Below are positions 8,936 to 39,180 of a stretch of DNA of 39,180 nucleotides, one piece after another. Position 1 is the first letter of the stretch. Each line of letters begins with the position of its first letter. The notes under the pieces are model-generated. The model did not search any database. It had not been told where the DNA came from and saw nothing but the letters and a program-made list of their open reading frames with translations. The stretch is taken from the IMG/VR virus record IMGVR_UViG_3300045988_088556. One strand, written 5' to 3'. This DNA comes from a virus. The position numbers and the translations under genes are program-made.

Positions 8936-9775
8936 TTAGGCGGCATCGGTGAACAACATCATGTCTGTGTAGTGCGAGCTGTAGTTCACTGTTGCGTTGA
9001 ACTCCACCTTGTGGCAGTTCTTGAATGGGTTGCCCACGGTCGGGTTCTTGCCCATCCATTCACAAAGCTCAATAATGGATGACTTGTTGGAAGTGAAATA
9101 TATAAAGTGATGTCTGGCAAGAATGGTCAGCACATCGAGGTAGTCGGAAAGTTTCCAGTACATATTATATGTGCCAACATCGGTGGATAGATAGGGCGGA
9201 TCAACAAGGTACACAACATTCGGCATGTCTTTGTATCTGGCGAACACCTCTTTGTAGTCGCATGATACTACTGTGATACCTTCAAGATAGTCCTCACAAG
9301 TAGGATAGTCTGACTTGCGGAGATTGTTGTATAGAGCCTCCTTCTTCATTTCGGGGATGCTCAATTTGTATTTCATGGAGAACATCAGTCCGGAAGAAAT
9401 GGTGATGAAGTCAATGTACCCGACCTCTCGTTCCTCTTGCTCCAAACGAGCGAATATGCGGTCGCGCAGTTCACCACGGATGCAGCTGTGCTTGGGTATG
9501 CCTTCCGTCTCCACCATTTTGCGCAGGTCAGCCAAAAGGTGGTTGGTCTGCGGGATGTGCTGTAGGCGGTTGCGGTAGCCGTCGAAGTCGTTGTATATGA
9601 CTGTGGCATTTGGCTTCTGGCACTTGGTGATGTGCGACAGCAGACCCGAACCGCCGAACAAATCCACGAATACTGTGTCCTCTGGATATTGTTTTAGAAC
9701 CTTGATAAACTCACGCGCGAACATGCGCTTCTGCCCCACGAAAGGGAGCGGTGCCGATAGATACTGTTTTCTCAT
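8936..9775 (-). CDS. dam: Dam-family N6-adenine DNA methyltransferase (D12 class), orphan
   Basis: Motif I FVDLFGGSG and motif IV DPPY (LVDPPYLS) in alpha-class order. No restriction-enzyme gene is adjacent. Confidence 0.85.
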   Translation of the reverse strand: MRKQYLSAPLPFVGQKRMFAREFIKVLKQYPEDTVFVDLFGGSGLLSHITKCQKPNATVIYNDFDGYRNRLQHIPQTNHLLADLRKMVETEGIPKHSCIRGELRDRIFARLEQEEREVGYIDFITISSGLMFSMKYKLSIPEMKKEALYNNLRKSDYPTCEDYLEGITVVSCDYKEVFARYKDMPNVVYLVDPPYLSTDVGTYNMYWKLSDYLDVLTILARHHFIYFTSNKSSIIELCEWMGKNPTVGNPFKNCHKVEFNATVNYSSHYTDMMLFTDAA

Positions 9776-9778
9776 GCC

Positions 9779-10417
9779 TTACACGTTCAGTTCAAATTTC
9801 ACGTTCTCGTTTCCGTTGAGCAACTGGCGTGTGTGGCTGATGTTGTTCTCGTAGATATGCACATTCGCAAGGTTCAGCGTGATGGACTTCAAAGGCAAGT
9901 CAATCTGCCGGGCCATAAGGTAGAGGTGGTAGATGTCGGCAGGCAAGCCGAGGTTCGCGTCCGAGCTGCGCTGGTATGCCGACACCACCAGTTCGCCGTT
10001 CTCTATCTGGAACTGAACGAGCGACAGGCACGGAGCCTGATTTGTCTCCGCATCGGTGGAACCGAGGAATAGCACATAGTTCTTGCTGTTGCGCTTCTCG
10101 CGGTTGATTTTGGCAATGAGCGGTGGCAGTTTCTCAAAATAGGTGGGGTAGGAGTTCACAAGGATGGCACCGCAGTAGTCCCACCAGTTGATGCCCACCT
10201 CGCGGTACTTCTCCACGTTGCGCTCGCCCTGCATGAATAGCTGTAGCTCGTTCCTTAACTTCTTGCGTGCGATGCCGTGCCCCTCGAAAATGTCGAGTAG
10301 GTCGGCAGGGGAAAGCACCAACCGCTCGTTGAGCAGATAGCGTATGCTCCCCTTCTTGTTTTGTTGGCACTTGCCCTCGGCAAGCACCTTCTGCAAAATT
10401 TGATGGTATTTGTTCAT
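9779..10417 (-). CDS. Thymidylate-synthase-family pyrimidine C5 (hydroxy)methylase, probably dCMP-specific
   Basis: Colinear with ThyA motifs: ELQLFMQG (ELLWFLQG), catalytic APC (Cys130, 10028-10030), YQRSSD..LGLP.DI. The residue equivalent to E. coli Asn177 is Asp161 (9935-9937). The C-terminus is short (212 aa in total). Confidence 0.72.
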   Translation of the reverse strand: MNKYHQILQKVLAEGKCQQNKKGSIRYLLNERLVLSPADLLDIFEGHGIARKKLRNELQLFMQGERNVEKYREVGINWWDYCGAILVNSYPTYFEKLPPLIAKINREKRNSKNYVLFLGSTDAETNQAPCLSLVQFQIENGELVVSAYQRSSDANLGLPADIYHLYLMARQIDLPLKSITLNLANVHIYENNISHTRQLLNGNENVKFELNV

Positions 10418-10488
10418 AACCGTTTTGAATTTGAAAACGGTGCAAAGGTAACAACGCGTGTCCCTTCGACAATGACCATACGCAAATG

Positions 10489-10731
10489 TTACACTGCAAG
10501 TAGATTGCAGTCAGTTTTGAAACGCCGTATAAGGCTGTACACCTTGCGCTCGCTTATGGCATATTCTGTGGCGAGCCTTGCCACGATGTACGACACTTTT
10601 TCGCCCTGTGCCGACATCGAGCGGTATTCGTTGAAAAGGTCGATATATTGCACATCGTCAAGCCTTATACCAGCCTTTTGGAAGTAAATCAGTAGTTCCC
10701 TGTTCAAATTAAGTATCTCTATTACTTTCAT
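10489..10731 (-). CDS. Mor/C-like small HTH transcription activator candidate
   Basis: 80 aa with C-terminal HTH IVARLATEYAISERKVYSLIRR. Its own TAttTTTG -7 box lies at 10790-10797 on the minus strand. Confidence 0.5.
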   Translation of the reverse strand: MKVIEILNLNRELLIYFQKAGIRLDDVQYIDLFNEYRSMSAQGEKVSYIVARLATEYAISERKVYSLIRRFKTDCNLLAV

Positions 10732-10925: not shown

Positions 10926-10931
10926 TTGTTC

Positions 10932-11417
10932 TTAGTCTCGGTATAACTCCAAATTGAAATTATCCTTGCTCTTCCATCCATCAGCCAGTGTGTCCTGGAT
11001 ATGCTGCATGGCTTTGGTATAGAAGTCCGTCAGTTCGTCGATGTCGGTGAATGTGTGATAGCATGGCTCATCGTCTGTTCCGAACTTGAACGTGACTGGC
11101 AATGTCTTGCCGTCAGACTGCACAGCCAAGTCGTATGCCACCTTGTAGTTGAACTGGTTCTCGTTTGAGAGCCACACGCTCATGCCGTTCCACACGAAGC
11201 CAGAAAGTATGGTCTCGTTCGTGCGGTCGTTGAACCACTCCGACACCATGGTCTTGATGGTGTCCTCAGATGGTTTTCCGTTGAACTCCGCCTCCATGTA
11301 GTCGGCAGAGCCATCCTCGTTGTTATGCACGTCCCAGCGGACGCGCCATTTTCCTTTGACGGGGTTGGTGCATTCAAGCAGCTTTACCCCTTGTGCTCCG
11401 TTTACTCTGTTCATCAT
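10932..11417 (-). CDS. DUF4376-like protein, translationally coupled to the RT
   Basis: 161 aa. Its ATG overlaps the RT stop (ATGA). Segment ILSGFVWNGMSVWLSNENQFNYKVAYD resembles the DUF4376 core. Recognised from memory. Confidence 0.55.
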   Translation of the reverse strand: MMNRVNGAQGVKLLECTNPVKGKWRVRWDVHNNEDGSADYMEAEFNGKPSEDTIKTMVSEWFNDRTNETILSGFVWNGMSVWLSNENQFNYKVAYDLAVQSDGKTLPVTFKFGTDDEPCYHTFTDIDELTDFYTKAMQHIQDTLADGWKSKDNFNLELYRD

Positions 11418-12766
11418 GTGAAAATGTACTTTGTTCTACCTTTGCCGAAGGTTTCCGCCTTGATGGTGGTCTCGAATGGGAAGCCGTCTGGCATTTCACT
11501 CACTTGCTGGAGAATGTTTTTCATCTCCTCGCTGTTGGTGAAGAACTTCTTCGGCTCGCCGTTCTGCTCGATGGACACGACACAGCGGTCTTCGCCCTGG
11601 CTGGTTTTGACTCCGACCTCGAAGTCTTTTACCACTATGGGCAGGTTCACCAACTCGCGGATGCTTACCACCGCACCCGCAAATCGCTTCTTGCCGTCTT
11701 CCGGCTTGTAAGCGACATTCAAATCCTTAAATGATTTCATTTTTTTGCCTGTTAATTTATAAAACAAATTTCGGCAGCAAGCGTGCTTGGCCATTCCGTA
11801 GAATGACGCAATCAGTTCTCGCCGTCTCTTTCTTGACTTGACTTTGTGTAGTTTCCTTGCATACTTCTTCTTGACACGCTTGCGCAGTAGAGAGTATGAT
11901 CCGTTGAATGTCACATACCCCAAGAAGTCGATTCCTTGCGCTGATGGGAATACCCTTTCGTTCTTCTTGATTTCAAGGTCTATTTTTTCGACTTGCTCAT
12001 GTACAATGCCGTGTGCCAGCCAATTTTCTTGCTTGTTGCCACAGAGCACTCTGCCGTCATCACAATAACGGTAGAAATGGCGGATGCCGTATTTGTCCTT
12101 CAGATAATGGTCAAGGTACTCGGACAACAAGAGATTGCCAGAAGCCTGTGAGCTTCGCAACCCGAAGCTGATGCCCTCCGGAAGGAGATGAAGAAAATGA
12201 TCCAGGAGCGACAGCAGGGTCTTGTCTTTGAATACTCTGCGGTAGCACCACATGACAAACTCAGGCTTAGTATTGTCATAGAAATGCTTGATGTCGAACT
12301 CGTAGCAGTAGCGTGTGCCTTCGGGGTCACGTTCCATGTCCAATTGCATGCACTTGCGGAGATCATGTGTGCCACGCTTCTTAATACTTGCTCCAGTCGT
12401 CCTGATAAAACGCTTATGCAGATGTTGGTCCACCACGTTCATCACGGCATACACTGCGATGCGGTCGTACATGGAAATAATCTGCAGGTGTCTTACTTTG
12501 CCATTCTCACAGATGATGCGTTCATGATAGTTGCCGAGTCGAAAGGAACCATCGGAAAGTTTGGCAGTCAATTCTGCAATCACCTCCTCGCGGTGTGCGA
12601 GCAGATAGCGTCCTTGACGGCATCTCTTTCGTTTTGTCCCACGCAGTACACGGTCAAACGCCTCCGACATATTGCCGTAGGACGTTATCTCTTGCATGAT
12701 ATAGCCTTCTCTGTGCATGGTCTTTTTTTGTGATGGAAGATAAGGGCCTTCCTTTCCCCGGGCCAA
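11414..12766 (-). CDS. DGR-type reverse transcriptase with an extra ~100-aa C-terminal domain
   Basis: RT motifs include catalytic YCDD (12056-12067) and the DGR-typical [LIV]GxxxSQ motif (GLRSSQ, aa 202-207). It lies 148 nt downstream of an AAY-rich template repeat. The start is ambiguous: Met17 at 12718 or Met24 at 12697 are also possible. Confidence 0.88.
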   Translation of the reverse strand: MARGKEGPYLPSQKKTMHREGYIMQEITSYGNMSEAFDRVLRGTKRKRCRQGRYLLAHREEVIAELTAKLSDGSFRLGNYHERIICENGKVRHLQIISMYDRIAVYAVMNVVDQHLHKRFIRTTGASIKKRGTHDLRKCMQLDMERDPEGTRYCYEFDIKHFYDNTKPEFVMWCYRRVFKDKTLLSLLDHFLHLLPEGISFGLRSSQASGNLLLSEYLDHYLKDKYGIRHFYRYCDDGRVLCGNKQENWLAHGIVHEQVEKIDLEIKKNERVFPSAQGIDFLGYVTFNGSYSLLRKRVKKKYARKLHKVKSRKRRRELIASFYGMAKHACCRNLFYKLTGKKMKSFKDLNVAYKPEDGKKRFAGAVVSIRELVNLPIVVKDFEVGVKTSQGEDRCVVSIEQNGEPKKFFTNSEEMKNILQQVSEMPDGFPFETTIKAETFGKGRTKYIFT

Positions 12767-12914
12767 ACTTCTTCGAATCGTTACCGACCTACCAAACTCT
12801 ATTGCCCGACACTTGATGTTTCAGCTTTCCACCTTGAATATAGGTGCTTTTGCTGTGGCTCGTTTCCCTCGGCTCCACATTAGGGACACGTCCCCATCGT
12901 TGTACGCCGATTAG

Positions 12915-13033
12915 TTAGATTTCCAGGCGCGAGCCGACATTCGCATTCGCATTCGAGGCATCGTTATTCGCATTCGCATTCGAGACACCGCCATTCGCGT
13001 TCGCATTGTTGTACCCGCGATAGACCACACGGC
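12915..13033 (-). repeat. DGR template repeat (TR); the 3' boundary is approximate
   Basis: On the minus strand the first 28 nt match the fibre-gene end at 39108-39135 at 26/28 positions, and both mismatches fall at TR adenines. In the VR frame it reads RVVYRGYNNANANGGVSNANANNDASNANANVGSRLEI-stop with 11 AAY codons. No ORF covers it. Confidence 0.82.
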
Positions 13034-13056: not shown

Positions 13057-13064
13057 CAAAGTTA
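13057..13064 (-). promoter_or_regulatory. Candidate promoter -7 box for the TR-RT transcript
   Basis: The minus strand reads taactttg, a perfect TAnnTTTG, ~24 nt upstream of the TR start. Confidence 0.35.
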
Positions 13065-13094
13065 CTCATTCTCTGTGCAAAAGATGAATGAATA

Positions 13095-13408: not shown

Positions 13409-13435
13409 AGCCAAGTTTTCTAACTTGGCTTTTTT
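13409..13435. terminator. Hairpin overlapping the MuF stop codon, with a T-tract on the plus strand
   Basis: agccaagtt-ttct-aacttggct (9-bp stem) followed by ttttt on the plus strand. On the minus strand it is preceded by AAAAAA, and the KKPS-stop codons lie within the stem. Confidence 0.5.
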
Positions 13436-14832: not shown

Positions 14833-14846
14833 ATAATCGGTGGGGC

Positions 14847-16196
14847 TCAGTCGAAAAAACTGCCGTGTACGTTTTGCTGATGTTTCTTCTTGTTCTTTTC
14901 GTCCGGCTCGTTGTTGCCCTCGTCGTCATCATCATCGTCCCCTCCAGTCGGGAGCATAGGCTGTGCATTGCGTCGCTCCCCGACAGGCATGCTGTATTTC
15001 TCTGCAAAGTAGGATGGGTCCACTTCGTAGCGGTCGGCAACCATGGTTTCGTATGCCACCTGCTGCTCCGGTGTGTAATCGACGGCATCATCCCATTCGA
15101 AGCGCAGTCCCTTGATTGGGAAGCCGTGCTTTACCATGCGTGGGATAAGCTGGTTGTTCACGATGTCGCGCAGCATGGTGCAGTCGCTTTCAACCAGGTT
15201 CTCGAACACCTCAAGGTGTGTTTCTGATTGTGAGAGGCTGCTGCCGTCCTCGATGGTCATCGTCTGCCCGATGATGAGCTTTGACAGTTCCGAGTTGGCG
15301 CGATCGATGCGTTTGTCATAGACATTGAAGGCATCGCCCTTGCCACTTTCGACAAATTCAATCTCCGTGTCCTGCCCTGCCACCATGTACTGGCTTGCTC
15401 CGGCACCCTTGAGCATCTGTTCAAGTCGTCCCATCTCCTTGGGGTCGCGTGATGTGGTGCGTGCGATACGCATCGGCATACCGAAAATCTCGCCGAAGGA
15501 ATCCCAAAATGCCAACATGTTTTTCTTCGGAATGGTCTGCGTGGCAGCCTTTAGATACAGGCCGAGATCGTCAGGCCGTCCAGCTTCTATGAGCCAGTCA
15601 GAGAATGGGGCTGAGTGGTAGTCGATGCCCGTAGTCCAGTCCTGCCCGAGCTGTTGAATCACACGACCGTATTCCGGAATGACATGCTTCCGTGGAATGA
15701 GTTTCACATCCGTATAGCAAGGACATCCGTCACCATCGGTGGTGAGGTCGCCAAGTTCGATGAGCGAGTGTCCCCAAAGATTGGCGGCAAGCGCATATTC
15801 GAGCATTTGCTTGAACCAAGCCTGGTCGAAATAGTGGTGTGCCTCCTCGTTCTCATTACCCTTTGCATCGACCAGTTTGAAGGACTTCGCCATGACGAAT
15901 CCTACACGCTGGCGAACACAGCCCGATAGGTGAAGGTCAATATCCACATCGCGGTATATGTCGTAGAGACGTTGGCGGTTCGGGCTGTCCACATTTATAG
16001 CCATCTGCCAGGCGTTGCGCCAGTCGGCAATGTCCCTGCGTGTAAGCGCATCGGTGGTGCGTTGCAGTTCGATGACCATCTTCTTTATGCGCTTGCGGTC
16101 AGACGACTTCGCAAGGTTAAAGTCCCCATTTGGCGTGTGCAGTATATTTTGACTGCCACCTCCGAACATACCGCTGAAAAAGTTCTTTATATCCAT
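14847..16196 (-). CDS. Portal protein (Mu gp29 / DUF935-like)
   Basis: 449 aa, located between terL and MuF. Acidic C-terminal tail (DDDDDDE). Confidence 0.75.
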   Translation of the reverse strand: MDIKNFFSGMFGGGSQNILHTPNGDFNLAKSSDRKRIKKMVIELQRTTDALTRRDIADWRNAWQMAINVDSPNRQRLYDIYRDVDIDLHLSGCVRQRVGFVMAKSFKLVDAKGNENEEAHHYFDQAWFKQMLEYALAANLWGHSLIELGDLTTDGDGCPCYTDVKLIPRKHVIPEYGRVIQQLGQDWTTGIDYHSAPFSDWLIEAGRPDDLGLYLKAATQTIPKKNMLAFWDSFGEIFGMPMRIARTTSRDPKEMGRLEQMLKGAGASQYMVAGQDTEIEFVESGKGDAFNVYDKRIDRANSELSKLIIGQTMTIEDGSSLSQSETHLEVFENLVESDCTMLRDIVNNQLIPRMVKHGFPIKGLRFEWDDAVDYTPEQQVAYETMVADRYEVDPSYFAEKYSMPVGERRNAQPMLPTGGDDDDDDEGNNEPDEKNKKKHQQNVHGSFFD

Positions 16197-16200
16197 AGCG

Positions 16201-16620
16201 TTACCAGTTATGTCGTAATTGTTTCTGTGAACCGAATATGAGCAGGTCGCCAGTAGGTGTGCCGTCCTCGTCGGTGGCGAGCGGCAGGTCGGGGATGATT
16301 TTCCCGGCTTGCACGCCTTCCAGCCACTTTATGGCACGCTCGTAGCGCTCCTTGCGTATTTCGCTGCCCATCTTTTGGGGCATAGCGGCAATCATGTGAT
16401 AGAGCGCAATGTCAGCGGCATACATTACCACCAGACGGTTGCGGTTTCCGCCTTCAGCCGAGAACACCGCTTCCGTGTCGTATTTTGGTCTGAGGTAGCC
16501 GGCAATCTCCTCGCAAGCCTCCAGTTCCGCATTGTCGCGTATCTCCTGCGATGCCTGCGACACGACTTTCAGCGCATTTTCGCCTATGACCACTCTGTAG
16601 TCCTCTTCCGTGATAAACAT
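16201..16620 (-). CDS. DUF1320 (Mu gp36-like) head-associated protein
   Basis: 139 aa. The N-terminus MFITEEDYRVVIGENAL is typical of DUF1320. Lies next to the portal gene. Confidence 0.55.
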   Translation of the reverse strand: MFITEEDYRVVIGENALKVVSQASQEIRDNAELEACEEIAGYLRPKYDTEAVFSAEGGNRNRLVVMYAADIALYHMIAAMPQKMGSEIRKERYERAIKWLEGVQAGKIIPDLPLATDEDGTPTGDLLIFGSQKQLRHNW

Positions 16621-16634
16621 AATCAGCCTCCTTC

Positions 16635-16865
16635 CTAATGCGTCACATAAATGGCACGACGCTCGATGTCGGCAACCTTCACACCCTTACGGAAGCGGTG
16701 CTTGGCAACCAGTTCGCGGATGGTGCGTTTCGGTACGACCTTCAGCGAGCCGTTCATGTAAATCACATAATACTTCATGCCAAGCAGCTTTGAGAGCTTG
16801 TTGGCTTTCTTGATGGCACGCTTGCACTGCCATCCCCAGATAATGTCCTTTATTACTTGTATCAT
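16635..16865 (-). CDS. Small basic protein, function unknown
   Basis: Track ORF trimmed to the ATG at 16865, immediately after the terL stop (16868-16870). Confidence 0.4.
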   Translation of the reverse strand: MIQVIKDIIWGWQCKRAIKKANKLSKLLGMKYYVIYMNGSLKVVPKRTIRELVAKHRFRKGVKVADIERRAIYVTH

Positions 16866-16867
16866 TG

Positions 16868-18427
16868 TTACCAAATGTTTTTGGCGGTCGGTCTTTTGCC
16901 GAACACCGGTTTGAAACTTTCCTGTCTTGTATTGCGCTGGAGTATCCATATAGCGCCTTCATCAGCGTCAGGCGCATCGTCATGCACACGGCTGCCACGC
17001 TCCAACGCCAACGTCTGTTCTATGCCCACCTGCATATCGGGGTCTTCCTTCTTGCGCTCGTTGTACCAGACAAAGCCACGTTCCCAAAGAGGACTGACCG
17101 CCTCGATACGCTGGATTTTGTCTGGCTTCTTTCGCTTGTCGGGCATGATGGGCAGTTGGTAGTCACGCAGCTCACCTTCCACGGCAAACTCGTCCAAAAT
17201 CACATCCTGCATGAAGTTCGCTTCCATGAAGAACTGAATAGCCACCGTGTCGCGTGTACGCTCATAGAGGTCGTATAACCATCGAACCATCTCGCTGACT
17301 GTCGCCTGGCGCACGAAACTGTCTATGAGATGCAGTTCCGAGCCAATCTTTCCCCAAACGCGGGATGCCTTATAGTCGTTGGAGGTTGTCGATTTGAACG
17401 ACGGGTCGGTATAGCACACAATCATGTCGTACTTTTCGAGCTTTGGCAAACGCTTGTATCGAATCCAATCCGCACGGAAGATCGTACCGTCCACGATAGG
17501 GTTGTGCATCATCTCCTTCTCCCAGGCACGATAGCCCACGAAGTCGCGGTAAGCCTGCGCCTCCTCTTTGGTCCATTTCTCCTTCCATACCGGTTCTCCG
17601 TTACGATCGACCGCTACGATTTTAGAAAGGAACACTCCCTTTGTACGTGAGAGATTGTAGAGCACAGAGTTCTTGCTGATGAGGTTGCCCACCATAATGA
17701 AGCGTCCACGGCCCACATCAAGCGCACCGAAGAGAGCCTCCTTCACCCAGTCGGTGAGGTCATGTACGAGTTTGTCGTTCTTGCAAAGCTGATCGTCGTC
17801 AAGGTCATCGATGACGATGTAGTCAGGACGGGATTCACGGTCACGCAGACCACGAGGCGACTGTCCACGACCGCAGGCAAGGAACTTCACACCGCTCTTT
17901 GTCTTGAACTCGCCCTCCTGCCATCCGCCGTCGTTCTTCTGCTGTCCGAAGTCGGCAATGAGACGCTGGTTGTATTCCAGTTCCGCTTGAATATCTCCAA
18001 GCAGTCGGTCGGCATTGTCCTCCGACTTTCCGACAACCACCATAAAGTTGATAAGCCGCTTCGGTTGGAACATCAACCAGAGCGGCGTGAATACATCAAG
18101 GTGGGTCGATTTGGCGTGACCGCGTGGCCACATGAATACAGCCTTCAAGTCGGGCGTGTTTCGGACCTTGCGTGCAGCTTCGTTGTGGAACGGAGCGTTG
18201 TGAATGGTGCGTATGACCTCACCGGTCGTCTTGTCACGCAATTGCAGGAAGTGTGGAAAGTAATACTCGCAGAACGCTGCGTAGTTGTTGAGCAAGCGTT
18301 TGATACGCATGTCCCTTTCTACTGGCGTTTCGCTTTTCAGGAGTGACGTGTCCGTAATGGCTTGCACTTGCCGGCATCGCTCTTTCCACTCCTCGTATGC
18401 CTTTTTCTTTTCCGCTGCTGTTGCCAT
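16868..18427 (-). CDS. terL: Terminase large subunit
   Basis: 519 aa. Walker A-like WPRGHAKST and Walker B-like YIVIDDLDD, with a C-terminal nuclease-like region. Upstream of the portal gene. Confidence 0.85.
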   Translation of the reverse strand: MATAAEKKKAYEEWKERCRQVQAITDTSLLKSETPVERDMRIKRLLNNYAAFCEYYFPHFLQLRDKTTGEVIRTIHNAPFHNEAARKVRNTPDLKAVFMWPRGHAKSTHLDVFTPLWLMFQPKRLINFMVVVGKSEDNADRLLGDIQAELEYNQRLIADFGQQKNDGGWQEGEFKTKSGVKFLACGRGQSPRGLRDRESRPDYIVIDDLDDDQLCKNDKLVHDLTDWVKEALFGALDVGRGRFIMVGNLISKNSVLYNLSRTKGVFLSKIVAVDRNGEPVWKEKWTKEEAQAYRDFVGYRAWEKEMMHNPIVDGTIFRADWIRYKRLPKLEKYDMIVCYTDPSFKSTTSNDYKASRVWGKIGSELHLIDSFVRQATVSEMVRWLYDLYERTRDTVAIQFFMEANFMQDVILDEFAVEGELRDYQLPIMPDKRKKPDKIQRIEAVSPLWERGFVWYNERKKEDPDMQVGIEQTLALERGSRVHDDAPDADEGAIWILQRNTRQESFKPVFGKRPTAKNIW

Positions 18428-18439
18428 AGGCTGCCTCCA

Positions 18440-18904
18440 CTATTTTATGCCCATCTGTTCTGTGATGTACATGTCCTGGTACTTGTTGATTACACGCATC
18501 AGTTCGGGAGTCACCTCTGGGTCTGTCTGCGAGCGGTACTCCAGCCACTTGGAAAACGCCATGAACACCTCGATGGCATCCACCACATTAGCCTTCTTGT
18601 CGAGTTTCTCAATGACCGACGAGAGTTTAGCCAGCTTGTCGCCAAGTCCTGCAATGAGTGCAGGGTCGTCAGAACCATTCACTTGTGTAATGAGTGTGTC
18701 GATGGTGAGCAACAGTTTGTTCACCAGTTCGGGGCGTGTGATGTTCTTGGCTGCACGAGCCTCTTTCCACCCCTCGGCTGAGCACCATTTGGATATGGTG
18801 ACGCGCGACACGTCCACCTTCTCCGCAATCTCCTGTTGCTCCATGCCCGAAAGATAGAGCGTGCGTGCCAGCGATTTCTTTTTTTCAATATCTGCCTTTG
18901 TCAT
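18440..18904 (-). CDS. terS: Terminase small subunit (HTH) candidate
   Basis: Track ORF trimmed to Met88 (ATG at 18904). HTH MEQQEIAEKVDVSRVTISKWC. Directly upstream of terL. Confidence 0.6.
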   Translation of the reverse strand: MTKADIEKKKSLARTLYLSGMEQQEIAEKVDVSRVTISKWCSAEGWKEARAAKNITRPELVNKLLLTIDTLITQVNGSDDPALIAGLGDKLAKLSSVIEKLDKKANVVDAIEVFMAFSKWLEYRSQTDPEVTPELMRVINKYQDMYITEQMGIK

Positions 18905-18985
18905 GTTGATAAGGTTTTTGTTCACATCAGGGCATACCACGCCCCGATTCCTTCTGCAAAAGTGCCACGATTTCGGTGGCTCTCC

Positions 18986-19037
18986 AAAAAAGTGTGCAAT
19001 GGTTTCATAGAAGTGTGCAACCATTGCACACTTTTTT
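18986..19037. repeat. Perfect 19-bp inverted repeat (A6-GTGTGCAATGGTT / AACCATTGCACAC-T6) between the divergent late operons
   Basis: 18986-19004 is the exact reverse complement of 19019-19037, with a 14-nt spacer. The spacer holds a third GTGTGCAA copy (19013-19020), which can form an alternative 8-bp hairpin with 19024-19031. Confidence 0.8.
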
Positions 19038-19107
19038 GGCGGACAGACAATTACCTCGTAATATTGCACTGCGAATTGGGCAATGCAGCCCAGAAAACGA
19101 CAATGAT

Positions 19108-20046
19108 ATGAGTAAAGGAAAACGCGTAAGAATAACCAACGACAGCCTGAACAGCTACGGCACAAGAGTGCTGACAGCTGGCATGAACGTGGAGCAGTAT
19201 CAGCGCAACCCCGTCCTGCTGTATATGCACGAGCGTGGTAATGTGATAGGTTATGTGAAAGACCTGAAGGTGGAGGATGGTGAGGTGACCGGCGAACTTA
19301 TGTTTGACGAAGCATCCGAACTCTCCGTTCGCTGCAAGAAACAGTACGAGTTCGGCAGTCTGAAGATGGTGAGCGCAGGGCTTGACATCTTGGAAACAAG
19401 CGAAGACCCCGAGTTGCTGGTGCAGGGGCAGACCAGCCCCACCGTCACCAAGAGCAAACTGTTTGAGGTCAGCCTTGTGGACATCGGAGCCAATGACGAT
19501 GCCATCGTGCTGCAGAAAGACGGCAAGAGAATAACCCTCGGCAAGGACAGCGAGTGCCCCTTGCCAATGTTGAACAACAATAATCAAAAACAAATGGAAC
19601 AGAAACAGATTGCCCTGAAGTTGGGCTTGCCGGAAACGGCAACTGAGGCGGACATCAACGCCAAGCTCGGTGAGTTGAAGGCTGCCAAGGAAGAGAACGA
19701 GAAACTCCAGCAGGAGAAGGCGACCCTCACGCTTGCCGGCATCACCGCCATCGTGGAGAAGGCGGTAGGGGAGAAGCGCATCGCCCCCGACAAGAAGGAC
19801 GAGTTCATCAACCTCGGCAAGGAAGTCGGCAAGGAGAAACTGGAGCGCATTGTCGCAGCCATGGCTCCGCAGATGAAGCTCAGTGCCGTTATCGGACATC
19901 AGGGCGGAGCGGCAACACAGCAGCCGGCTGCCTACAAGAAACTGGGCGATGTGCCGTCAAGCGAACTCTTGACCCTCCGCAAGGAGCAGCCCGAAGAGTA
20001 CAAGCGACTCTACAAGGAAGAGTACGGCATGGAGTGTGAACTTTAG
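19108..20046 (+). CDS. Prohead protease (HK97/U35-S78-like) with a C-terminal coiled-coil scaffold-like region
   Basis: Track ORF trimmed to the ATG at 19108. Protease-like N-terminal half (NPVLLYMHE, FEVSLVDIGAN). Lys/Glu-rich helical C-terminal half. Upstream of the capsid gene. Confidence 0.68.
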   Translation: MSKGKRVRITNDSLNSYGTRVLTAGMNVEQYQRNPVLLYMHERGNVIGYVKDLKVEDGEVTGELMFDEASELSVRCKKQYEFGSLKMVSAGLDILETSEDPELLVQGQTSPTVTKSKLFEVSLVDIGANDDAIVLQKDGKRITLGKDSECPLPMLNNNNQKQMEQKQIALKLGLPETATEADINAKLGELKAAKEENEKLQQEKATLTLAGITAIVEKAVGEKRIAPDKKDEFINLGKEVGKEKLERIVAAMAPQMKLSAVIGHQGGAATQQPAAYKKLGDVPSSELLTLRKEQPEEYKRLYKEEYGMECEL

Positions 20047-32515: not shown

Positions 32516-35500
32516 ATGACAGACGAGGAGAAGAAGACCGTCGTTCAGGAAGTCCTGAACCAGATAAAGACAGACAGTCAGAGCGTGGACGAACTGGAAA
32601 CCGCCACCTCACTTGACTGCGTGAACTCACTCCCGGCCATGCAGGGTGAGAAGGTTGTCCGTGTGCCTGTGTCCCTGCTTGCGAAACCTGCGGAAGACGC
32701 GGCCAAGAGAGCAAACGCAGCCGCCGCCACAGCGGACGCATCATCGAAAGCGGCCGGAACTGCGGCACAGCAGGCCAAAGACGCGGCAGATGTGGCTTCC
32801 GGCGCGGCACTCACGGCCAACAATTCGGCCATGCTTGCCGATGCGGCCACGGCAAAGCTGAATGATGCCATCGCAGCCGCCAACACCCACCCGGTGGTGC
32901 TGGCGAACAGCCTTGTCGGTGATGCAGACCGCATATTCAGTGACTGGTCAGAGGCGATGGAGACCATTGCCGGCAACGAGAGCGTCGGTGGTGAGAAAGT
33001 ATTTACCACCGGCTGCGTGATGATATTCAGGAGTGCGGACGGTTGGGAGTCCTGGCAGTTCACCGGTGATCCCCTCGATGACCTCCATGATGCGGAGAAA
33101 TGGCAGGAATATGCCACAGGCGGCAGTGGCGGAAACACCTACAATGTGACAGAGGAAATCCCGCTTGAGAGCGGTTACTACACATTGGCGACCGCCATTG
33201 TTGCCGTAGAGGAGAAGAAACGCGCCAAGGGACGCTGCATCACCTACGAGACGGCACAGGGCAAGTGGGAGACCAAGCAGTTCATCGGCACGAGCCTTGA
33301 CAGTTGGGAACAGGCGGCAAGTTGGGAGGACTTCGGCGGTGCGGGTAACGTGAAGAGCATATCGGTAAACGGAAAGAAACAGACGCTTGACAGCGCGGGC
33401 AACGTGAACCTCACCATAAATGAGACGGAGGTGGACGAGAGTCTGAACGCCAACTCGACGAACCCGGTGCAGAACGCGGCCGTGGCCGCCAAACTTGCAG
33501 AGGTCGAAGCCAACACCATATTCGGCGGCAGTGCCGAACTGAGCGATGACGAGAGCACCGTGCGTGTGACGCTGACCAACAAGAGCGGCGCGGAGGTTGT
33601 CGGCTTGGATATTCCTGCCGGCAAGGGCGGCGGTGGCGGAGAAACCTCCACCACCAGAATCGTGTTGACGGCAGAAACAGACAAGTCCGTCATCAAGGAA
33701 GGCGACAAGGCCACACTCACATGGTTCTACGACCACCAGTACAGCAGCGGTGACGAGAAGGGGACATCGACGGGGCAGAAAGCCACGGTGGAGATACAGA
33801 TGAAACGCGGCGCGACGCTGATGTATTCCGATACGCAGCAGGACGTGAGCAAGGGCACCTATACGCTGGACCTGACGAAATACCTCCTTTTGGGCACGAC
33901 TGACATCTATGTGAAGGCCACCACCACCGACCCGACCACAGGCAAGACGCAGACCAAGCAGAGCTATGTAAGTGTGAAGGCGGTGACGCTTGCACTGACG
34001 AGCGGTTTCAATATTGCCGAGTGCATTGCAAAGGGTGGTTATGGCGTGAGCGAGAATGTGGGCATACCCTATGCCGTAAGCGGAAGCGGTACAAAGACCG
34101 TCACCCTCTATGTGGACGGCATACAGAAAGATTCCGTTTCTGTCACGAGGAGCGGTACGACCAACGGTATCTTTACGCTCTCCATGTCCGGGCTTGCTGT
34201 CGGCAGGCATACCGTGCAGATGGTGGCTGAGATGAAGGCAAGCGAGGAACTGACACTGAAGAGCGATAGCATCTATTTCGATATATTGAAGACCGGCAGC
34301 AGCGCTCCATATATAGGAACCAAGATAACCTTCAAGGACGGACGCGTCTTTACGGCAGACCATCTCACCCCGACTATCGACACAGGCCAGTATGAGCAGG
34401 TGTTGTTCGACTTCGTGGCGTATGACCCGACAGCGACCCCTGCAAGCATGAGCGTGTGGAGGGACGGCATAAGGACACAGACGGTGAGCGTGCCGAGAAC
34501 GGTGCAGACCTACACGAACCGTTTCCTGGAGAAAGGCGCAGTTGCGATGGTGCTGAAGTGCGGCACGACCGAATACAAGTTCAATGTGAACGTGACGGAG
34601 AGCGGCATCGACCTTGGCGAGGCGACATCGGGACTGGTGCTGAAGCTGACGGCAGCGGGCAGGAGCAATGCGGAGAGCAGTCCTGCGGAATGGCGTTATA
34701 ACGACGTTCAAACGGCGTTTGAAGGCTTTGACTGGCAGAGCAACGGCTGGACGGGTGACGCGCTGAAATTGACGAACGGCGCGAACATCGAGATAGGCTG
34801 CAAACCATTCGGCAACGATGCTACGACCACTGGTGCGACTTACGAGATGGAACTGACCTGCACCAATGTGACCGACCGCAAGGGCACGGTGGTGGACTGT
34901 ATGGCCGACAATGTCGGTTTCAGACTGACCACGCAGGAGGCGCTGATGTGCACGGGCGCAGGCTCGGAAGTGGGCACGAAGTTCGCGAGCGGCATGACAC
35001 TGAAGATAGCCTTCGTGGTCCAGGAGAAGAAGGGCAACCGGCTGATGGAACTGTATGTGAACGGCATATTGAGCGGTGCAAAGCAGTACGCCCCGACAGA
35101 CAGCCTTCTGCAGGACGAGCCGGCCAACATCAGGATAACGAGTGAGAGCGCGGACGTGGAGGTAAGGAACCTGCGCATATACAACCGTGCATTGGGCGAT
35201 GACGAGGAACTTGCCAACTACATGGTGGACCGCCCGACGAGCGATGAGATGGTGTTTCTGTTCGAGAAGAACCAGGTGATGGACGACGAGGGCACTGATG
35301 TCGATATAGACAAGCTGAGGGCGATGGGCAAGAGCGTGATGCGCATCGTGGGCGACGTTAACTTAGTGAACCAGACGAACAACAAGAAGTTCGAGGTGCC
35401 GGTCGATATATACTTCTATTCGGCCTACGGCAAGGAGTATGACTTCATCATCTACCAGTGCGGTCTGCGCATACAGGGAACATCATCGACGACCTACCCG

Positions 35501-38500
35501 AGAAAGAACTACCGCATATACTTCTCAAGAGAGAGCAAGTACGGCACGAAGTTGTATGTGAACGGAGTGGAGGTTCCTGACTTCAAGTATTCGTTCAAGC
35601 CGGGGGCACGTCCCATTGACATTTTCTGTCTGAAAGCCGACTTCTCGGACTCGTCCTCAACGCACAACCCCGGCGGTGTGCGCATCGTGAACGATATTTG
35701 GAAGAAATGCGGCTGGCTGACTCCGCCACAGGCGGCATACAAAGGCAACTACGACGTGAGAATCGGCGTGGACGGTTTCCCTATGGACCTGTTCTATGAC
35801 AACGACGGGACAGGTGAGAACGTGTACTTAGGCAAGTACAACTTCCTGAACGAGAAGAGCGGCAGCGGCATCATCTACGGCTTTGAGGGTATCGAGGGTT
35901 TCAATGACGAAGCAACACTCAATGGTGAACGCAACAAGTGCATCTGTCTGGAGTTTCTGAACAACTCTGAGGCACTGTGTCTGTTCGGTACGAGCAACAT
36001 GGACTCGTTTGACGACGCACTGGAGTTCCGTTTCAAGGCCGATGACACATGGGCGACGGCGCACGAGGACGACAAGGCAGCTGTGAAACGCCTTTGGGAA
36101 TGGATTTATTCGTGCAAGGGCAACCCGACAAAGTTCTTGAACGAATATGAGGGCTATTTCGGCAACGACTCGCCCTTTGCATGGTATCTGATAACCGACT
36201 ACCTGATGGCTGTCGATAACCGCGCGAAGAACATGATGCTCGTGACATGGGACGGCAAGATATGGTACTTCATTCCCTACGACATGGATACCATCTTCGG
36301 CGAGCGGAATGACTCGGTGCTGAAGTACGACTACACGATAACGTGGGAGACGATGGACGAGAGCATCGGCTCGTATGCCTTTGCAGGGCATGACTCGGTA
36401 TTGTGGGAGCTGGTGAGAAGCTGCCCCGACAAGTTGCGCGAGGTGGCCGACAAGCTGCGCTCTACCATGTCGTTGGAATATGTGCTGAAAGTGTTCAACG
36501 AGAAGCAGATGGGCAACTGGTGCGAGCGCATCTACAACAAGGACGGTATCTATAAGTATATCAAACCGCTCACGGATGGCGTGACGAGTGCTGACGGAAC
36601 GACCAATTACTACGACTACCTGTACGCGTTGCAGGGCAGCCGGTACGCCCACCGCACCTTCACCATTCAGAACCGCTTCGCCCTGCTTGACAGTCAGTAT
36701 GTGTGCGGCACATACAGAAAGGACAGCTTTGCGGCCTACTTCGGCTACAAATTTGGCTCGGATAACCGCAAAATAAGAATCACGGCAAGCGAGCGTTACT
36801 ACTTCGGATACGGCTACACAAGCGGAACGCCTCACCAAAGTGCGGTGCTGGCCGAGGACACGGGTAGCACGGTAAACCTGACATTGGATACAGATCTCAT
36901 TGTGAACGACCCGCAGTACATCTACGGCGCAAGCCGCATCATGGGGCTTGACCTGACGGACGTGAGTCACGCTATACTGCAGACGCTGAATCTGAACAAC
37001 TGCACGGCACTGAGGACGCTGGACGTGAGCTGTGCCCAGGCACAGACAACGCTGAACGCCCTGTTGGTAAACGGTTGTCGGAACTTGCGGACATTGAGCA
37101 TGACCGGTCTGAAGTCCACAGCCTTTACAGGCATAGACCTGAGTAACAACACGAAGTTGGAGACACTGAAAGCTGGCCGGACGGCACTGACAGGCGTGAA
37201 CTTCGCACAGGGCGCACCGCTGACGAGCGTGACGCTGCCTGCGACATCGCAGACGCTGGAGTTGCGCTATTTGGGCAAACTGAGGACAAGTGGCCTGACA
37301 TTAGAGGGCACGGGCAATATCACACGCTTTGTGGTGGATAATTGTCCCGGCATAGACTGGCAGACATTGTATGCAAGATGCACCAATGTAAAGTATCTGC
37401 GCGTGACTGGTATCGACATGGAGGGCGACGGCAGCCTGCTGACCTCGCTGATGGCGATTGGCGGCGTGGACGAGAACGGTGGCAACGTGGATACCTGCCG
37501 ACTGGTGGGCACATATCGACTGACGCAATACAAGGCCGATGAAGAGTACGATGCACTGCAGCGGCACTTCCCCGAACTGAACATTGTACAGCCCGAATAC
37601 ACCATGCTGGAGAGCGACGAGAGTGTGGCAGACGATGCGAATATCTCCAATCTTGACAACGGAACGGGCTACAAGTACGGCAACGACTACAAGCCGAGCG
37701 GGCACATAGAGGCAATCTTCAAGAACCGCCACCGTGTGCTGGCGAAGGTGACAAAGAAGGCTACGACAAGAAATGTGAACATCGCCAATGTGGATACCGT
37801 GGTGAACAACCTTGACGGTGAGATGACATATTGCCCACTTGCAGACACGGACAGCAACAAGTATTATGATGGCACGGTTGCAAAGCTGGACGGCACGGAG
37901 GGCGACTGGATGATGTATGAGCCATTCTTCTGGAGCAAGGGCATCAACGACTTCCTGAACGGCAAGAACTACAGCTGCTACAGTTCAAGGGACAAGGACC
38001 ACATGCCGACGGTGCCGAACGTGGACGTGCTTACGCTTGCGGACATCAAGGCACGTCAAGGCGGTTATACCAGCGGAAAGAAGATAATGAGCGGCAAGGA
38101 CACCATCAAGAACTCCTACAGCACAGACAGCACCTATTCCGTATGTATGGTCGATGTCAGCGGTTACAAGAAAGTACGCTGGCCGAGTGTGCCAGGAACC
38201 AATCTCGTAGGCTCAATATTTGCTGATGCAAGCGGTAATGTGGTGAAAGACATCGTGGTTCCGACTCTGGGCAGCCGTTTCGAGGCCGGTATGTATCTTA
38301 TATCAGATGTTCCGGAAGGTGCGACGGCATTGTATTTCTCCATTTTGAACACGGCAGAGTTCGATAAGGTAGTCCTCTCCAACAGTGAGAAGATAGAGGA
38401 CATGGAGCCGGAGTGGTTCGCCAATGACGAGCACTTGTGCGCTGTTGTGGGCAGCTCGGTAGTCGGCAGCAAGTTGCGCTCTGCCATAACAGGCAACAGC

Positions 38501-39135
38501 ACCACCGGCAGTATGTCATGGACGGACTTCCACTATTACAGCGTGCAGCGAGGCATGCAGCAGATAGACGCGCTGATGCACTTCCGTATTGCCAACTTGA
38601 GCTATGCCAAGTATGGGCGCAGGAATATGCAGGAACAGTGCGGCGCCGGCCAGCATTCCTATATGAGAACAACCGGCGGTACAGCGTCAAGAGGTATGCA
38701 GGACACCATTGGCTTTGAGGAGGCAAGCGGAATCAACCCGAATGTGACAAACAATACCTCCGATGCAGGCGTGCACCTGTATGCCTGGTATATAGAGAAA
38801 GACGAGTACGGAGCCACAAAGGTGACACAGGTGAACAATATCTGCTGTATAGGCTATGAGGACATCTACGGCAACAAGTATGATATGATGGACGGCGTTG
38901 ATGTACCGAATACAAGCGGCAATGTCGGCAAGTGGCGCATTTGGCTACCTGACGGCAGTACCATTATGATAAAAGGCATGAGCAACAGCGGCTACTGGAT
39001 AACCACCGTGGCGCATGGCAAACTGATGGCAATAGTGCCTGTTGGAGCCATGAATGGCTCGTCCACCACCTACTACTCTGATATATACTATTTCAGTTCA
39101 GGCACGTGCCGTGTGGTCTATCGCGGGTGCTACAA
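32516..39135 (+). CDS. Giant receptor-binding tail fibre protein and DGR target. 3'-partial (more than 2206 aa) with LamG-like, CotH-like, LRR-like and C-terminal lectin-like regions.
   Basis: The frame is open from the ATG at 32516 to the adapter junction; I translated it by eye and spot-checked it at 34682, 36962 and 38702. It is absent from the ORF track because it has no stop in the window.
- LamG-like: LYVNG...VEVRNLRIYNRAL
- CotH-like: PRKNYRIYF, FCLKADFSDSS, VYLGKYNF
- LRR-like: LNLNNCTALRTLDVS...
- The 3' end matches the TR. Confidence 0.85.
39108..39135 (+). repeat. DGR variable repeat (VR), only the first 28 nt visible, truncated by the fragment end
   Basis: gccgtgtggtctatcgcgggtGcTacaa aligned to TR gccgtgtggtctatcgcgggtAcAacaa. 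The mismatches at 39129 and 39131 both correspond to TR adenines (13012 and 13010). Confidence 0.75.
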
Positions 39136-39180
39136 CTGTCTCTTATACACATCTCCGAGCCCACGAGACTACGCTGCATC
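39136..39180. other. Library adapter (reverse complement of 1-45). Not biological.
   Basis: CTGTCTCTTATACACATCT plus CCGAGCCCACGAGAC plus the tag. This is the Nextera mosaic-end read-through sequence. Confidence 0.92.

What the first reader, a model, noticed from the sequence alone, without database searches (positions are those of the whole stretch)
39108..39135. Variable-repeat start at the very end of the giant fibre gene, with mismatches only at template adenines
The last 28 nt before the adapter match the TR (minus strand 13033-13006) at 26 of 28 positions.
- The two differences are TR A to G (39129) and TR A to T (39131). They change TR codons TAC AAC into VR codons TGC TAC.
- All 22 non-adenine positions are conserved.
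- Homology starts abruptly: the 10 nt upstream are unrelated.
- If the VR has the same length as the TR, about 30 more codons and a stop lie just beyond the fragment.
Basis: seen in the sequence. Interest (0 to 1): 0.8.

Follow-up and report, generated by a model that had tools for sequence, protein, structure and literature searches.

The report
Truncated phage tail-fibre DGR variable repeat
The last 28 real bases of this phage contig are the start of the hypervariable tip of its tail-fibre gene, which a reverse-transcriptase cassette 26 kb away on the other strand rewrites at adenine positions; this is real, but it is an ordinary member of a well-known system, the Hankyphage-type diversity-generating retroelement.

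Summary
Window 39108-39135 (+) matches the reverse complement of 13006-13033 at 26 of 28 bases. Both differences fall on template adenines, and no such match is expected by chance.

The template repeat (TR, 12923-13033, minus strand) sits in an intact DGR cassette with its own promoter motif, an Rfam RT-3 RNA and a reverse transcriptase 71% identical to Hankyphage's. The 28 bases lie exactly where Hankyphage-like tail fibres begin their variable repeat (VR).

An untrimmed Nextera adapter cuts the contig at 39136, so this exact sequence could not be extended. The closest relative (98.4% nt) and dozens of others continue TR homology for about 110 nt. Across 11 full VRs compatible with this TR, there were 107 mismatches at TR adenines and 6 elsewhere.

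One correction: about 50 codons are missing (29 VR plus 21 invariant), not 30.

The cassette is inverted and 26 kb from its target, unlike canonical Hankyphage. This layout is real and common (47 of 80 closest RT relatives). Non-adjacent phage DGR targets have been described before.

Verdict: new member of a known kind, low-to-moderate interest. Activity in this sample remains untested.

The parts
39108..39135 (+). First 28 nt of the variable repeat (VR). It encodes ..C R V V Y R G C Y and is cut off by an adapter.
   Evidence: 26/28 to the TR with both mismatches at TR adenines. Same position as the VR start in Hankyphage and in more than 70 relatives.
32516..39135 (+). Giant tail-fibre gene, the DGR target, truncated at its 3' end. 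About 50 codons and the stop are missing.
   Evidence: Open frame from 32480, first ATG at 32516. 57% aa identity over residues 163-2187 of the Hankyphage tail-fibre protein. Relatives end 58 codons after RVVYRG.
12923..13033 (-). Template repeat (TR), 111 nt. The 110-nt stretch compared holds 25 adenines. It contains 11 AAY codons plus TAT, TAC and GAT in the VR reading frame.
   Evidence: Identical or near-identical TR in dozens of IMG/VR contigs. Homology to full VRs of relatives ends at ..CGCCTGG.
13057..13064 (-). TAACTTTG, a Bacteroidota-type -7 promoter motif (TAnnTTTG), 23 nt upstream of the TR. It is the likely promoter of the TR RNA.
   Evidence: The motif is present 31-37 nt upstream of the TR in 77/87 distinct TR-upstream sequences of relatives. 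Background is 12/976 80-nt windows. Promoter function is inferred from the published Bacteroides consensus and was not tested.
12759..12912 (-). Structured non-coding RNA between TR and RT. It belongs to Rfam RF03068 (RT-3 RNA) and corresponds to the DGR spacer RNA.
   Evidence: 146.2 bits against a gathering score of 40.5, E 1.7e-37, full-length match. RNAalifold on 15 relatives gives 42 pairs, 10 with compensatory changes.
11414..12718 (-). DGR reverse transcriptase, 434 aa, intact.
   Evidence: Pfam RVT_1 at 37 bits, above the 29.6 cut-off. PHROG 1423 reverse transcriptase, E 2.4e-99. 71% aa identity over the full length to the Hankyphage RT. GLRSSQ and YCDD motifs are visible in the translation.
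10932..11417 (-). 161-aa ORF whose start overlaps the RT stop (ATGA). It is the homologue of the ORF labelled 'Avd' in Hankyphage annotations. An Avd identity is not verified.
   Evidence: 64% aa identity to the Hankyphage 'Avd'. Only a sub-threshold DUF4376 hit. No NCBIfam or PDB hit. PHROG 19239, unknown function.
8936..10731 (-). Genes that travel with the cassette in both genome layouts: an 80-aa HTH-like ORF, thymidylate synthase and a D12-class adenine methyltransferase.
   Evidence: Pfam hits. 61-83% aa identity to Hankyphage hp44, ThyA and MTase, in the same order.
39136..39180 (.). Nextera adapter read-through with i7 index TACGCTGC. This is an artefact that ends the contig inside the VR, and its mirror copy lies at 1-45.
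   Evidence: 45-nt perfect inverted repeat at the two window ends (pair I1). The sequence was read.

Best explanation
The window is a Mu-like temperate phage of gut Bacteroidales, probably of Prevotellaceae. It carries a Hankyphage-type diversity-generating retroelement (DGR), and positions 39108-39135 are the 5' end of that element's variable repeat in the tail-fibre gene.

Proposed mechanism:
1. An RNA containing the TR (12923-13033, minus strand) and the adjoining RT-3 structured spacer is transcribed from its own promoter (inferred).
2. The RT encoded just downstream copies it into cDNA and misincorporates opposite template adenines. This is inferred from the established DGR mechanism and was shown experimentally for Hankyphage.
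3. The cDNA replaces the VR at the 3' end of the fibre gene (inferred). This recodes up to 14 codons of the receptor-binding tip, roughly 5e14 possible peptides.

In this lineage the cassette is not next to its target. It lies 26 kb away on the opposite strand, downstream of the Mu-F head gene, so it must act in trans within the genome.

The contig stops 28 nt into the VR because untrimmed adapter reads capped the assembly. The VR is a systematic assembly breakpoint. The most likely cause is that the sample holds several VR variants, but this is inferred and not shown.
For: The repeat itself:
- 26/28 match with both mismatches at TR adenines, and none expected by chance.

The cassette is complete:
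- Promoter motif conserved in 77/87 distinct upstream sequences against a background of 12/976.
- RT-3 RNA at 146 bits, with 10 covarying pairs.
- Intact RT.

Homology to Hankyphage:
- The fibre, TR, RT and downstream genes are homologous to the Hankyphage DGR module, where the VR occupies the same position.
- Hankyphage DGR activity at TR-adenine positions was shown experimentally (PMC12135933; PMC6199706).

Extension by proxy:
- L212 (98.4% nt identity over 37176-39133) carries the same first two substitutions, then a full VR, 21 further codons, a stop and the phage right end followed by host PUL genes.
- Across 11 full VRs compatible with this TR there are 107 mismatches at A against 6 at non-A.
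- 24/25 A positions vary against 5/84 non-A positions.

The layout is real:
- An independent GenBank contig has Mu-F, then TR, then RT.
- At least 15 IMG/VR contigs carry TR and VR on opposite strands, most of them about 26 kb apart, some with host flanks on both sides.
- 47 of the 80 closest RT loci have Mu-F upstream of the TR.
- In this layout the fibre is followed only by about 210 nt and the phage end, with no second cassette.

The VR is an assembly breakpoint:
- 22 of 80 related loci stop inside the roughly 110-nt VR.
Against: - Only 28 nt of the VR are visible, and two substitutions alone are weak evidence for adenine specificity (p about 0.04).
- No reads were available, so within-sample diversification is untested.
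- This exact sequence could not be extended in any collection.
- No canonical Avd could be recognised.
- The C-type lectin fold of the target was not recovered.
- In three relatives with this same TR, the VR belongs to a different TR type. Carrying this cassette therefore does not guarantee that it templated the resident VR.
Confidence: 0.87

Rival explanations
1. The VR is a fossil. It was written by a DGR in the past, but the cassette no longer diversifies it in this phage. The two A-site differences would then be old, fixed changes, and the contig break would be caused only by low coverage and adapter contamination.
For: - No read-level data are available.
- One relative (L040) has a VR identical to its TR.
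- Several relatives carry VRs of a different TR type from their own cassette, so the cassette and VR can be uncoupled.
- No recognisable Avd was found.
Against: - The RT ORF, the RT-3 RNA, the promoter motif and the TR are all intact and highly conserved.
- VRs paired with this same TR differ from each other almost only at A positions.
- The VR is an assembly breakpoint in 22/80 relatives.
- The homologous Hankyphage DGR is experimentally active (PMC12135933).
Confidence: 0.08
2. The VR is templated by a TR other than the one at 12923-13033. Candidates are a second, canonical cassette just beyond the contig end, as in Hankyphage p00, or the cassette of a co-resident related phage acting in trans.
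For: - In canonical Hankyphage the TR lies about 390 nt downstream of the VR.
- Three TR types coexist in these phages, and some contigs pair a VR of one type with a TR of another.
Against: - In every relative with the Mu-F-upstream layout, the fibre stop is followed by about 210 nt and the phage right end (..GCGGATTATA), then host DNA. There is no cassette there.
- The visible VR bases match this window's own TR type, not the T-type or the p00-type, at the discriminating positions.
Confidence: 0.04
3. The match is an assembly artefact: TR-derived reads were wrongly joined to the end of the fibre gene, so no VR exists here.
For: - The contig end is of poor quality and capped by an adapter.
- Collapsed or fused VR/TR assemblies do occur among relatives (L017, L031, L046, L052, L053).
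Against: - The 28 nt differ from the TR at two positions, so they are not the TR copy.
- They continue the fibre reading frame.
- More than 70 independent relatives, including isolate-derived Hankyphage genomes, have the repeat starting at exactly this codon of the fibre.
Confidence: 0.01

Closest known systems
Hankyphage DGR (Bacteroides/Phocaeicola phage p00; jmh72_hp PV107408.1)
   Same: - The giant tail fibre is homologous (57% aa), with the VR at the same C-terminal position.
- The TR has the same design and the same 5' end.
- The RT is 71% identical.
- The same downstream genes follow: the 'Avd' ORF, hp44, ThyA and an adenine methyltransferase.
- The same structured spacer RNA is present.
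- Both are Mu-like transposable phages of gut Bacteroidales.
   Different: - In Hankyphage the order fibre-VR, hp41, TR, RT is colinear at the right genome end.
- Here the whole cassette is inverted, 26 kb from the VR and downstream of the Mu-F gene, and hp41 is replaced by an unrelated 77-aa membrane ORF.
- Head and replication proteins are only about 30% identical, so this is a different phage sharing the tail and DGR modules.
Bordetella phage BPP-1 DGR (mtd, avd, TR, brt), the prototype
   Same: - Adenine-specific TR-to-VR information transfer into the 3' end of a tail-fibre gene.
- AAY-rich TR.
- The RT lies next to the TR, with a structured spacer RNA between them.
   Different: - No recognisable Avd.
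- The target is not adjacent and is on the opposite strand.
- IMH and the downstream hairpin could not be examined in the window. In a relative the candidate stem is not better than shuffles.
- The target is over 2200 aa, against 381 aa for Mtd (from general knowledge).
Phage-associated DGRs with only a non-adjacent target (Wu et al. 2018, PMC5758913)
   Same: [quoted passage not shown] It also notes that avd, TR and brt work in trans from a plasmid. This is the same layout class as here.
   Different: Whether those two cases are this lineage was not checked. Here the layout is shown to be the majority arrangement among the closest RT relatives (47/80).
Rfam RF03068 RT-3 RNA (Weinberg et al. 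2017, PMC5737381)
   Same: The TR-RT spacer at 12759-12912 is a full-length, high-scoring member. The paper describes the RT motifs as lying near RT genes and possibly belonging to retrons or DGRs.
   Different: Here its context is explicit: it directly follows a DGR template repeat. This fits the spacer part of a DGR RNA.

Membership tests
Diversity-generating retroelement (DGR) | A reverse transcriptase of the DGR type lies next to the template repeat. | tested here: met
   - RVT_1 is above the Pfam cut-off.
- 71% aa identity over the full length to the Hankyphage DGR RT.
- GLRSSQ (GxxxSQ) and YCDD motifs are read in the translation.
- That these motifs are DGR-typical rests on general knowledge of the family.
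Diversity-generating retroelement (DGR) | A TR/VR repeat pair differs only at template adenines. | tested here: met
   - In the window: 2 of 2 mismatches at A over the 28 nt visible, which has low power.
- In 11 full VRs of relatives compatible with this TR: 107 mismatches at A against 6 elsewhere.
Diversity-generating retroelement (DGR) | The VR lies at the 3' end of a protein-coding target gene, with adenines at codon positions 1 and 2. | tested here: met
   - The VR is in frame at the end of the fibre ORF.
- Relatives reach the stop 58 codons after the VR start.
- The TR reads as 11 AAY codons plus TAT, TAC and GAT in the VR frame.
Diversity-generating retroelement (DGR) | An IMH element at the 3' end of the VR, a non-identical IMH* at the end of the TR, and often a GC-rich inverted repeat downstream. 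| tested here: inconclusive
   - This part lies beyond the contig end.
- In relatives, VR and TR share an A-free GC-rich end (GTCGGCTCGCGCCTGG) and then diverge (GCCTTCCGCGG.. versus AAATCTAAC..).
- The candidate stem after the VR folds no better than shuffles (z -0.14).
Diversity-generating retroelement (DGR) | An accessory variability determinant (Avd) or another accessory gene is present. | tested here: inconclusive
   The 161-aa ORF overlapping the RT stop is conserved with Hankyphage's so-called Avd (64% aa). It has no Avd signature in Pfam, NCBIfam, PDB or PHROGs. Its structure was not predicted.
Diversity-generating retroelement (DGR) | The VR is displayed on a C-type lectin (or Ig) fold. 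| tested here: inconclusive
   - No Pfam or PDB sequence hit.
- The AlphaFold models have mean pLDDT 67 and 64, with the VR segment below 50.
- Foldseek finds only CBM-like hits for the preceding beta-sandwich and nothing for the VR domain.
- Benler et al. report a C-type lectin domain in the Hankyphage homologue.
Diversity-generating retroelement (DGR) | Ongoing diversification: within-population polymorphism restricted to TR-adenine positions. | not testable with these tools
   - No reads were available.
- Proxies: variation between contigs is adenine-restricted, and 22/80 related loci break inside the VR.
Diversity-generating retroelement (DGR) | A structured non-coding RNA (spacer) lies between the TR and the RT. 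| tested here: met
   Rfam RT-3 at 146 bits. Consensus fold with 10 compensatory pairs.
Hankyphage proper (Bacteroides phage p00 lineage) | Colinear order of fibre-VR, small ORF, TR, RT at the right genome end. | tested here: not met
   The cassette is on the opposite strand, 26,074 nt from the VR, downstream of Mu-F (pair I4).
Hankyphage proper (Bacteroides phage p00 lineage) | Genome-wide similarity to p00. | tested here: not met
   - MuA, MuB, portal, TerL and Mu-F are 28-31% aa identical.
- No DNA-level match outside the tail and DGR modules.
- Tail and DGR proteins are 57-83% identical.

The most novel reading that the evidence does not exclude
In this phage lineage the DGR cassette has become a free-standing module that works in trans on the opposite strand. 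DGR cDNA from one phage may also be able to home into the fibre VR of a different, co-resident phage.

The hint is that three relatives carry this window's TR and RT, but a fibre VR whose non-adenine positions match the TR of another phage type. Two of them have the T-type and one has the p00-type. Carriers of the same foreign VR type have different VR flanks.

The evidence does not separate this reading from ordinary recombination or from chimeric assemblies of mixed strains.
Probability: 0.1. Interest if true: 0.6.

Novelty: new member of a known kind. Interest (0 to 1): 0.28.

Why it matters
The result confirms that reading the sequence alone correctly spotted a DGR target 26 kb from its template and on the other strand. 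DGR-finding pipelines that search for repeats only near the RT may miss such targets; I have not checked any pipeline's search window.

For gut-virome work, it shows that a common Hankyphage-like lineage, probably of Prevotellaceae, keeps a hypervariable tail-fibre tip although the cassette has moved away from the target. It also shows that the VR is a systematic assembly breakpoint that truncates such genomes.

It adds no new mechanism.

Tried and rejected
Extending this exact sequence failed.
- A 33-mer spanning the fibre/VR junction has no match in IMG/VR.
- A 37-mer pattern in JGI/ENA metagenomes found two relatives. L210 is 94-99% identical and becomes chimeric after 76 nt of VR. L211 is 90% identical. 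Neither is identical to the window.
- The TR-spacer 28-mer has no match in GTDB representative genomes.

Circular permutation was rejected.
- The sequence that follows the fibre in relatives has no match anywhere in the window.
- The inverted copy of the phage right end is absent from the window.
- About 385 nt of phage are therefore simply missing.

Misassembly of the inverted cassette was rejected, because the same layout recurs in independent contigs, some with host flanks.

MT835789 (VR) and MT839296 (TR) were tried as a matched pair. They show 17 mismatches with only 10 at A, so they are not from the same genome.

The C-type lectin fold of the target was not recovered.
- Pfam, NCBIfam and PDB sequence and profile searches found nothing.
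- Two AlphaFold models were of low confidence over the VR domain, and Foldseek gave no meaningful hit for it.

An Avd identity for the 161-aa ORF was not supported.

A hairpin downstream of the VR, tested in a relative, is not better than shuffles.

No second VR-like copy of either TR end exists in the window.

Full report
**1. The observation**

- The window ends ...GGCACGT GCCGTGTGGTCTATCGCGGGTGCTACAA, followed by CTGTCTCTTATACACATCTCCGAGCCCACGAGAC-TACGCTGC-ATC.
- The 28 nt at 39108-39135 match the reverse complement of 13006-13033 at 26/28 (pair I4).
- The differences are TR A to G at 39129 and TR A to T at 39131. All 22 non-adenine positions agree.
- The 10 nt upstream agree at 3/10, which I counted.
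- A search with up to 3 mismatches finds only these two copies, and 0 are expected from 100 shuffles. No other copy of either TR end exists in the window.
- The sequence from 39136 on is a Nextera adapter with an i7 index. Its mirror image occupies 1-45 (pair I1). The real sequence is therefore 46-39135.

**2. What surrounds the two copies**

The plus-strand copy lies in frame at the end of an ORF that is open from 32480 (first ATG at 32516) to the contig end. It is over 2200 aa and ends ..SSGTCRVVYRGCY.

The minus-strand copy belongs to a compact cassette, listed in order along the minus strand.
- A 77-aa membrane ORF (13328-13095).
- A TAACTTTG motif at 13064-13057.
- The repeat itself (13033-12923).
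- A 204-nt spacer.
- A 434-aa reverse transcriptase (12718-11414).
- A 161-aa ORF whose ATG overlaps the RT stop.

The functional assignments are as follows.
- The RT passes Pfam RVT_1 and shows GLRSSQ and YCDD.
- The spacer is a full-length member of Rfam RT-3 RNA (146 bits against a gathering score of 40.5). This is one of the motifs found near bacterial RT genes (PMC5737381).
- An alignment of 15 diverse relatives gives a consensus fold with 10 compensatory pairs.
- The TAnnTTTG motif, the Bacteroidota -7 promoter consensus (from general knowledge), lies 31-37 nt upstream of the TR in 77 of 87 distinct relatives. Background is 12 of 976 80-nt windows.
- In the VR frame the TR reads RVVYRGYNNANANGGVSNANANNDASNANANVGSRL. 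It has 11 AAY codons plus TAT, TAC and GAT, and 25 adenines in the 110-nt stretch compared. This is the classic DGR template design.

**3. The known relative**

- The RT end of the cassette matches Bacteroides phage p00 (Hankyphage) records at 81% nt.
- In the annotated Hankyphage genome jmh72_hp the order is tail fibre (2239 aa) with the VR at its 3' end, hp41, TR, RT, 'Avd', hp44, ThyA and a DNA methyltransferase. All are colinear at the right genome end.
- Its TR and VR differ at 12 positions, all at TR adenines.
- Protein comparison with the window:
  - Fibre 57%, RT 71%, 'Avd' 64%, hp44 61%, ThyA 83% and MTase 66% aa identity.
  - MuA, MuB, portal, TerL and Mu-F only 28-31%.
- The window is therefore a different Mu-like phage that shares the tail and DGR modules.
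- Hankyphage's DGR is published (PMC6199706). It was shown experimentally to mutate the fibre VR at TR-adenine positions (PMC12135933).

**4. Does the homology continue beyond 39135?**

This exact sequence could not be extended. Close relatives answer the question by proxy.
- MT835789.1 (80% nt identity) continues into a full VR.
- Eighty IMG/VR loci encode the fibre C-terminus at 76-99% aa identity. Every one that is long enough continues TR homology for about 110 nt. It then reads AFRGKIV.AQSV.AYKA..E.A and reaches a stop, 58 codons after RVVYRG.
- The closest relative is L212 (ENA ERZ1744301), at 98.4% nt identity over 37176-39133.
  - It has the same first two substitutions as the window (GGGTGCTAC..).
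  - It then carries a complete VR, the stop and a terminator-like hairpin.
  - About 210 nt later comes the phage end (..CGTTTTGCGGATTATA), followed by host SusC/SusD genes.
- About 50 codons are therefore missing from the window, not about 30. The stop codon seen in the TR copy lies outside the repeat.

**5. Adenine specificity at population scale**

- Fifty full-length VRs were compared with the window's TR.
- Eleven have at most one non-adenine difference. Together they carry 107 mismatches at adenines and 6 elsewhere.
- 24 of 25 adenine positions vary, against 5 of 84 other positions.
- Seven of these eleven are shown to lie on contigs where the TR is on the opposite strand, usually about 26 kb away.
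- 22 of the 80 related loci stop inside the roughly 110-nt VR. The VR is thus a systematic assembly breakpoint, and the window's truncation 28 nt into the VR fits that pattern.
- I infer, but cannot show, that mixed VR alleles in the sample split the coverage, so that an adapter-containing read path won.

**6. The inverted, distant cassette is real**

- In the window the TR and VR are on opposite strands, 26,074 nt apart.
- The same order of Mu-F, small ORF, TR, RT appears in an independent GenBank contig.
- At least 15 IMG/VR contigs hold both repeats on opposite strands, most of them about 26 kb apart. Some have host DNA on both sides.
- Of the 80 closest RT loci:
  - 47 have Mu-F upstream of the TR.
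  - 18 have the canonical Hankyphage layout.
  - 3 have the fibre fused directly to the TR.
  - 12 could not be classified.
- In the distant layout nothing but the phage end follows the fibre. A second hidden cassette is therefore unlikely.
- The tails of relatives do not match the window's start, so the contig is not circularly permuted.
- Non-adjacent targets of phage-associated DGRs have been described, including two cases with a single target about 20 kb away. Trans action of avd, TR and brt has also been reported (PMC5758913).

**7. What could not be confirmed**

- The 161-aa ORF has no detectable Avd signature.
- The fibre C-terminus gives no Pfam, NCBIfam or PDB hit.
- Two AlphaFold models are confident only for a CBM-like beta-sandwich upstream. 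They are poor over the VR domain, and Foldseek finds no lectin match.
- The IMH region and any downstream hairpin lie beyond the contig. In a relative the candidate stem is not better than shuffles.
- Within-sample variation needs reads.

**8. Host**

- The best genome match to the RT (95% aa) is a 37.7-kb contig binned with a Prevotella MAG. More distant relatives are spread over Prevotellaceae, Bacteroidaceae and other Bacteroidales.
- L212 is flanked by polysaccharide-utilisation genes typical of Bacteroidota.

**9. Verdict**

- The element is a Hankyphage-type DGR whose target VR is cut off by an assembly and adapter artefact.
- The only unusual feature is the inverted cassette 26 kb from its target. 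This is genuine and common in this lineage, but it falls within what is already known for DGRs.
- Novelty: new member of a known kind.
- Interest: about 0.28.

Noticed in passing
window 1-45 and 39136-39180: Untrimmed Nextera adapter read-through (CTGTCTCTTATACACATCT CCGAGCCCACGAGAC, index TACGCTGC) caps both contig ends as a perfect 45-nt inverted repeat. The real sequence is 46-39135.
   Followed up: yes
window 8936-13328 (minus strand) versus L003 (PV107408.1) 38225-42606: The whole DGR cassette, with the hp44-like, ThyA and adenine-methyltransferase genes, sits inverted between the early region and the Mu-F/portal/terminase block. In Hankyphage it sits after the fibre. 47 of the 80 closest RT loci in IMG/VR share this layout.
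   Followed up: yes
window 12759-12912 (minus strand): The TR-RT spacer is a full-length Rfam RT-3 RNA (RF03068, 146 bits). It is the only Rfam hit in the window, and no tRNA genes were found. This places the motif directly after a DGR template repeat.
   Followed up: partly
window 13057-13064 (minus strand): A TAACTTTG (TAnnTTTG) Bacteroidota -7 promoter motif lies 23 nt upstream of the TR. It is conserved at that distance in 77/87 distinct relatives in both genome layouts, which suggests the TR RNA has its own promoter.
   Followed up: partly
L005 with L117 (IMGVR_UViG_3300019843_000003); L066 with L166 and L225 (3300029243_000254); L034 with L145 (3300045988_185346): These contigs carry the window-type TR and RT, but their fibre VR matches another TR type at non-adenine positions. 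Two match the T-type (GGTTTATCGTGGG..GTCGTG..GCAGCG..GGCTCACGC), whose own TR and roughly 70%-identical RT occur in L213-L229. One matches the p00-type. Possible causes are recombination, homing in trans between co-resident phages, or chimeric assembly.
   Followed up: partly
L041, L024, L029, L077 (TR copies); L017, L031, L149, L170 and protein P0010: Some canonical-layout relatives have TRs carrying the same A-site substitutions as their VR. This could be VR-to-TR conversion or assembly collapse. Others have the fibre VR fused straight into the TR spacer, replacing the fibre's last 21 codons.
   Followed up: no
L007, L008, L009, L014, L019, L027, L035, L043, L046, L049, L052, L053, L057, L058, L059, L061, L065, L067, L073, L079, L080, L081: 22 of 80 related fibre loci stop inside the roughly 110-nt VR. 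The VR is a recurrent assembly breakpoint in public viromes and metagenomes.
   Followed up: yes
window about 37,900-38,420 (residues 30-200 of P0001): A confidently modelled beta-sandwich (pLDDT about 90) precedes the VR-bearing domain. Its best Foldseek matches are carbohydrate-binding modules (CBM51, CBM35) and phage tailspike domains, all with weak scores.
   Followed up: partly
window 46-8900 and 13420-19165 versus L003: The genome is a mosaic. Replication, transposition and head genes are only 28-39% aa identical to Hankyphage. Lysis, tail and DGR genes are mostly 56-83% identical.
   Followed up: partly
L212, L015, L006, L012, L018, L022 (about 210 nt after the fibre stop): The phage right end in this lineage is ..GGCGAAACGYTTCGTTTTGCGGATTATA. 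It contains repeated ACGTTTCGTTTT-like boxes, and different host DNA follows in each contig. No inverted copy of this end exists in the window, so the true left end may also be missing.
   Followed up: partly
window 654-687 and 882-915: Two 34-nt direct repeats, 94% identical and 228 nt apart (GATTTTTCTTGTYTTTTTTCTTGCATAGTYGAGA), lie in and just beyond the minus-strand ORF 218-907 at the left end. Read on the minus strand, each contains ATGCAAGAAAAAA.
   Followed up: no
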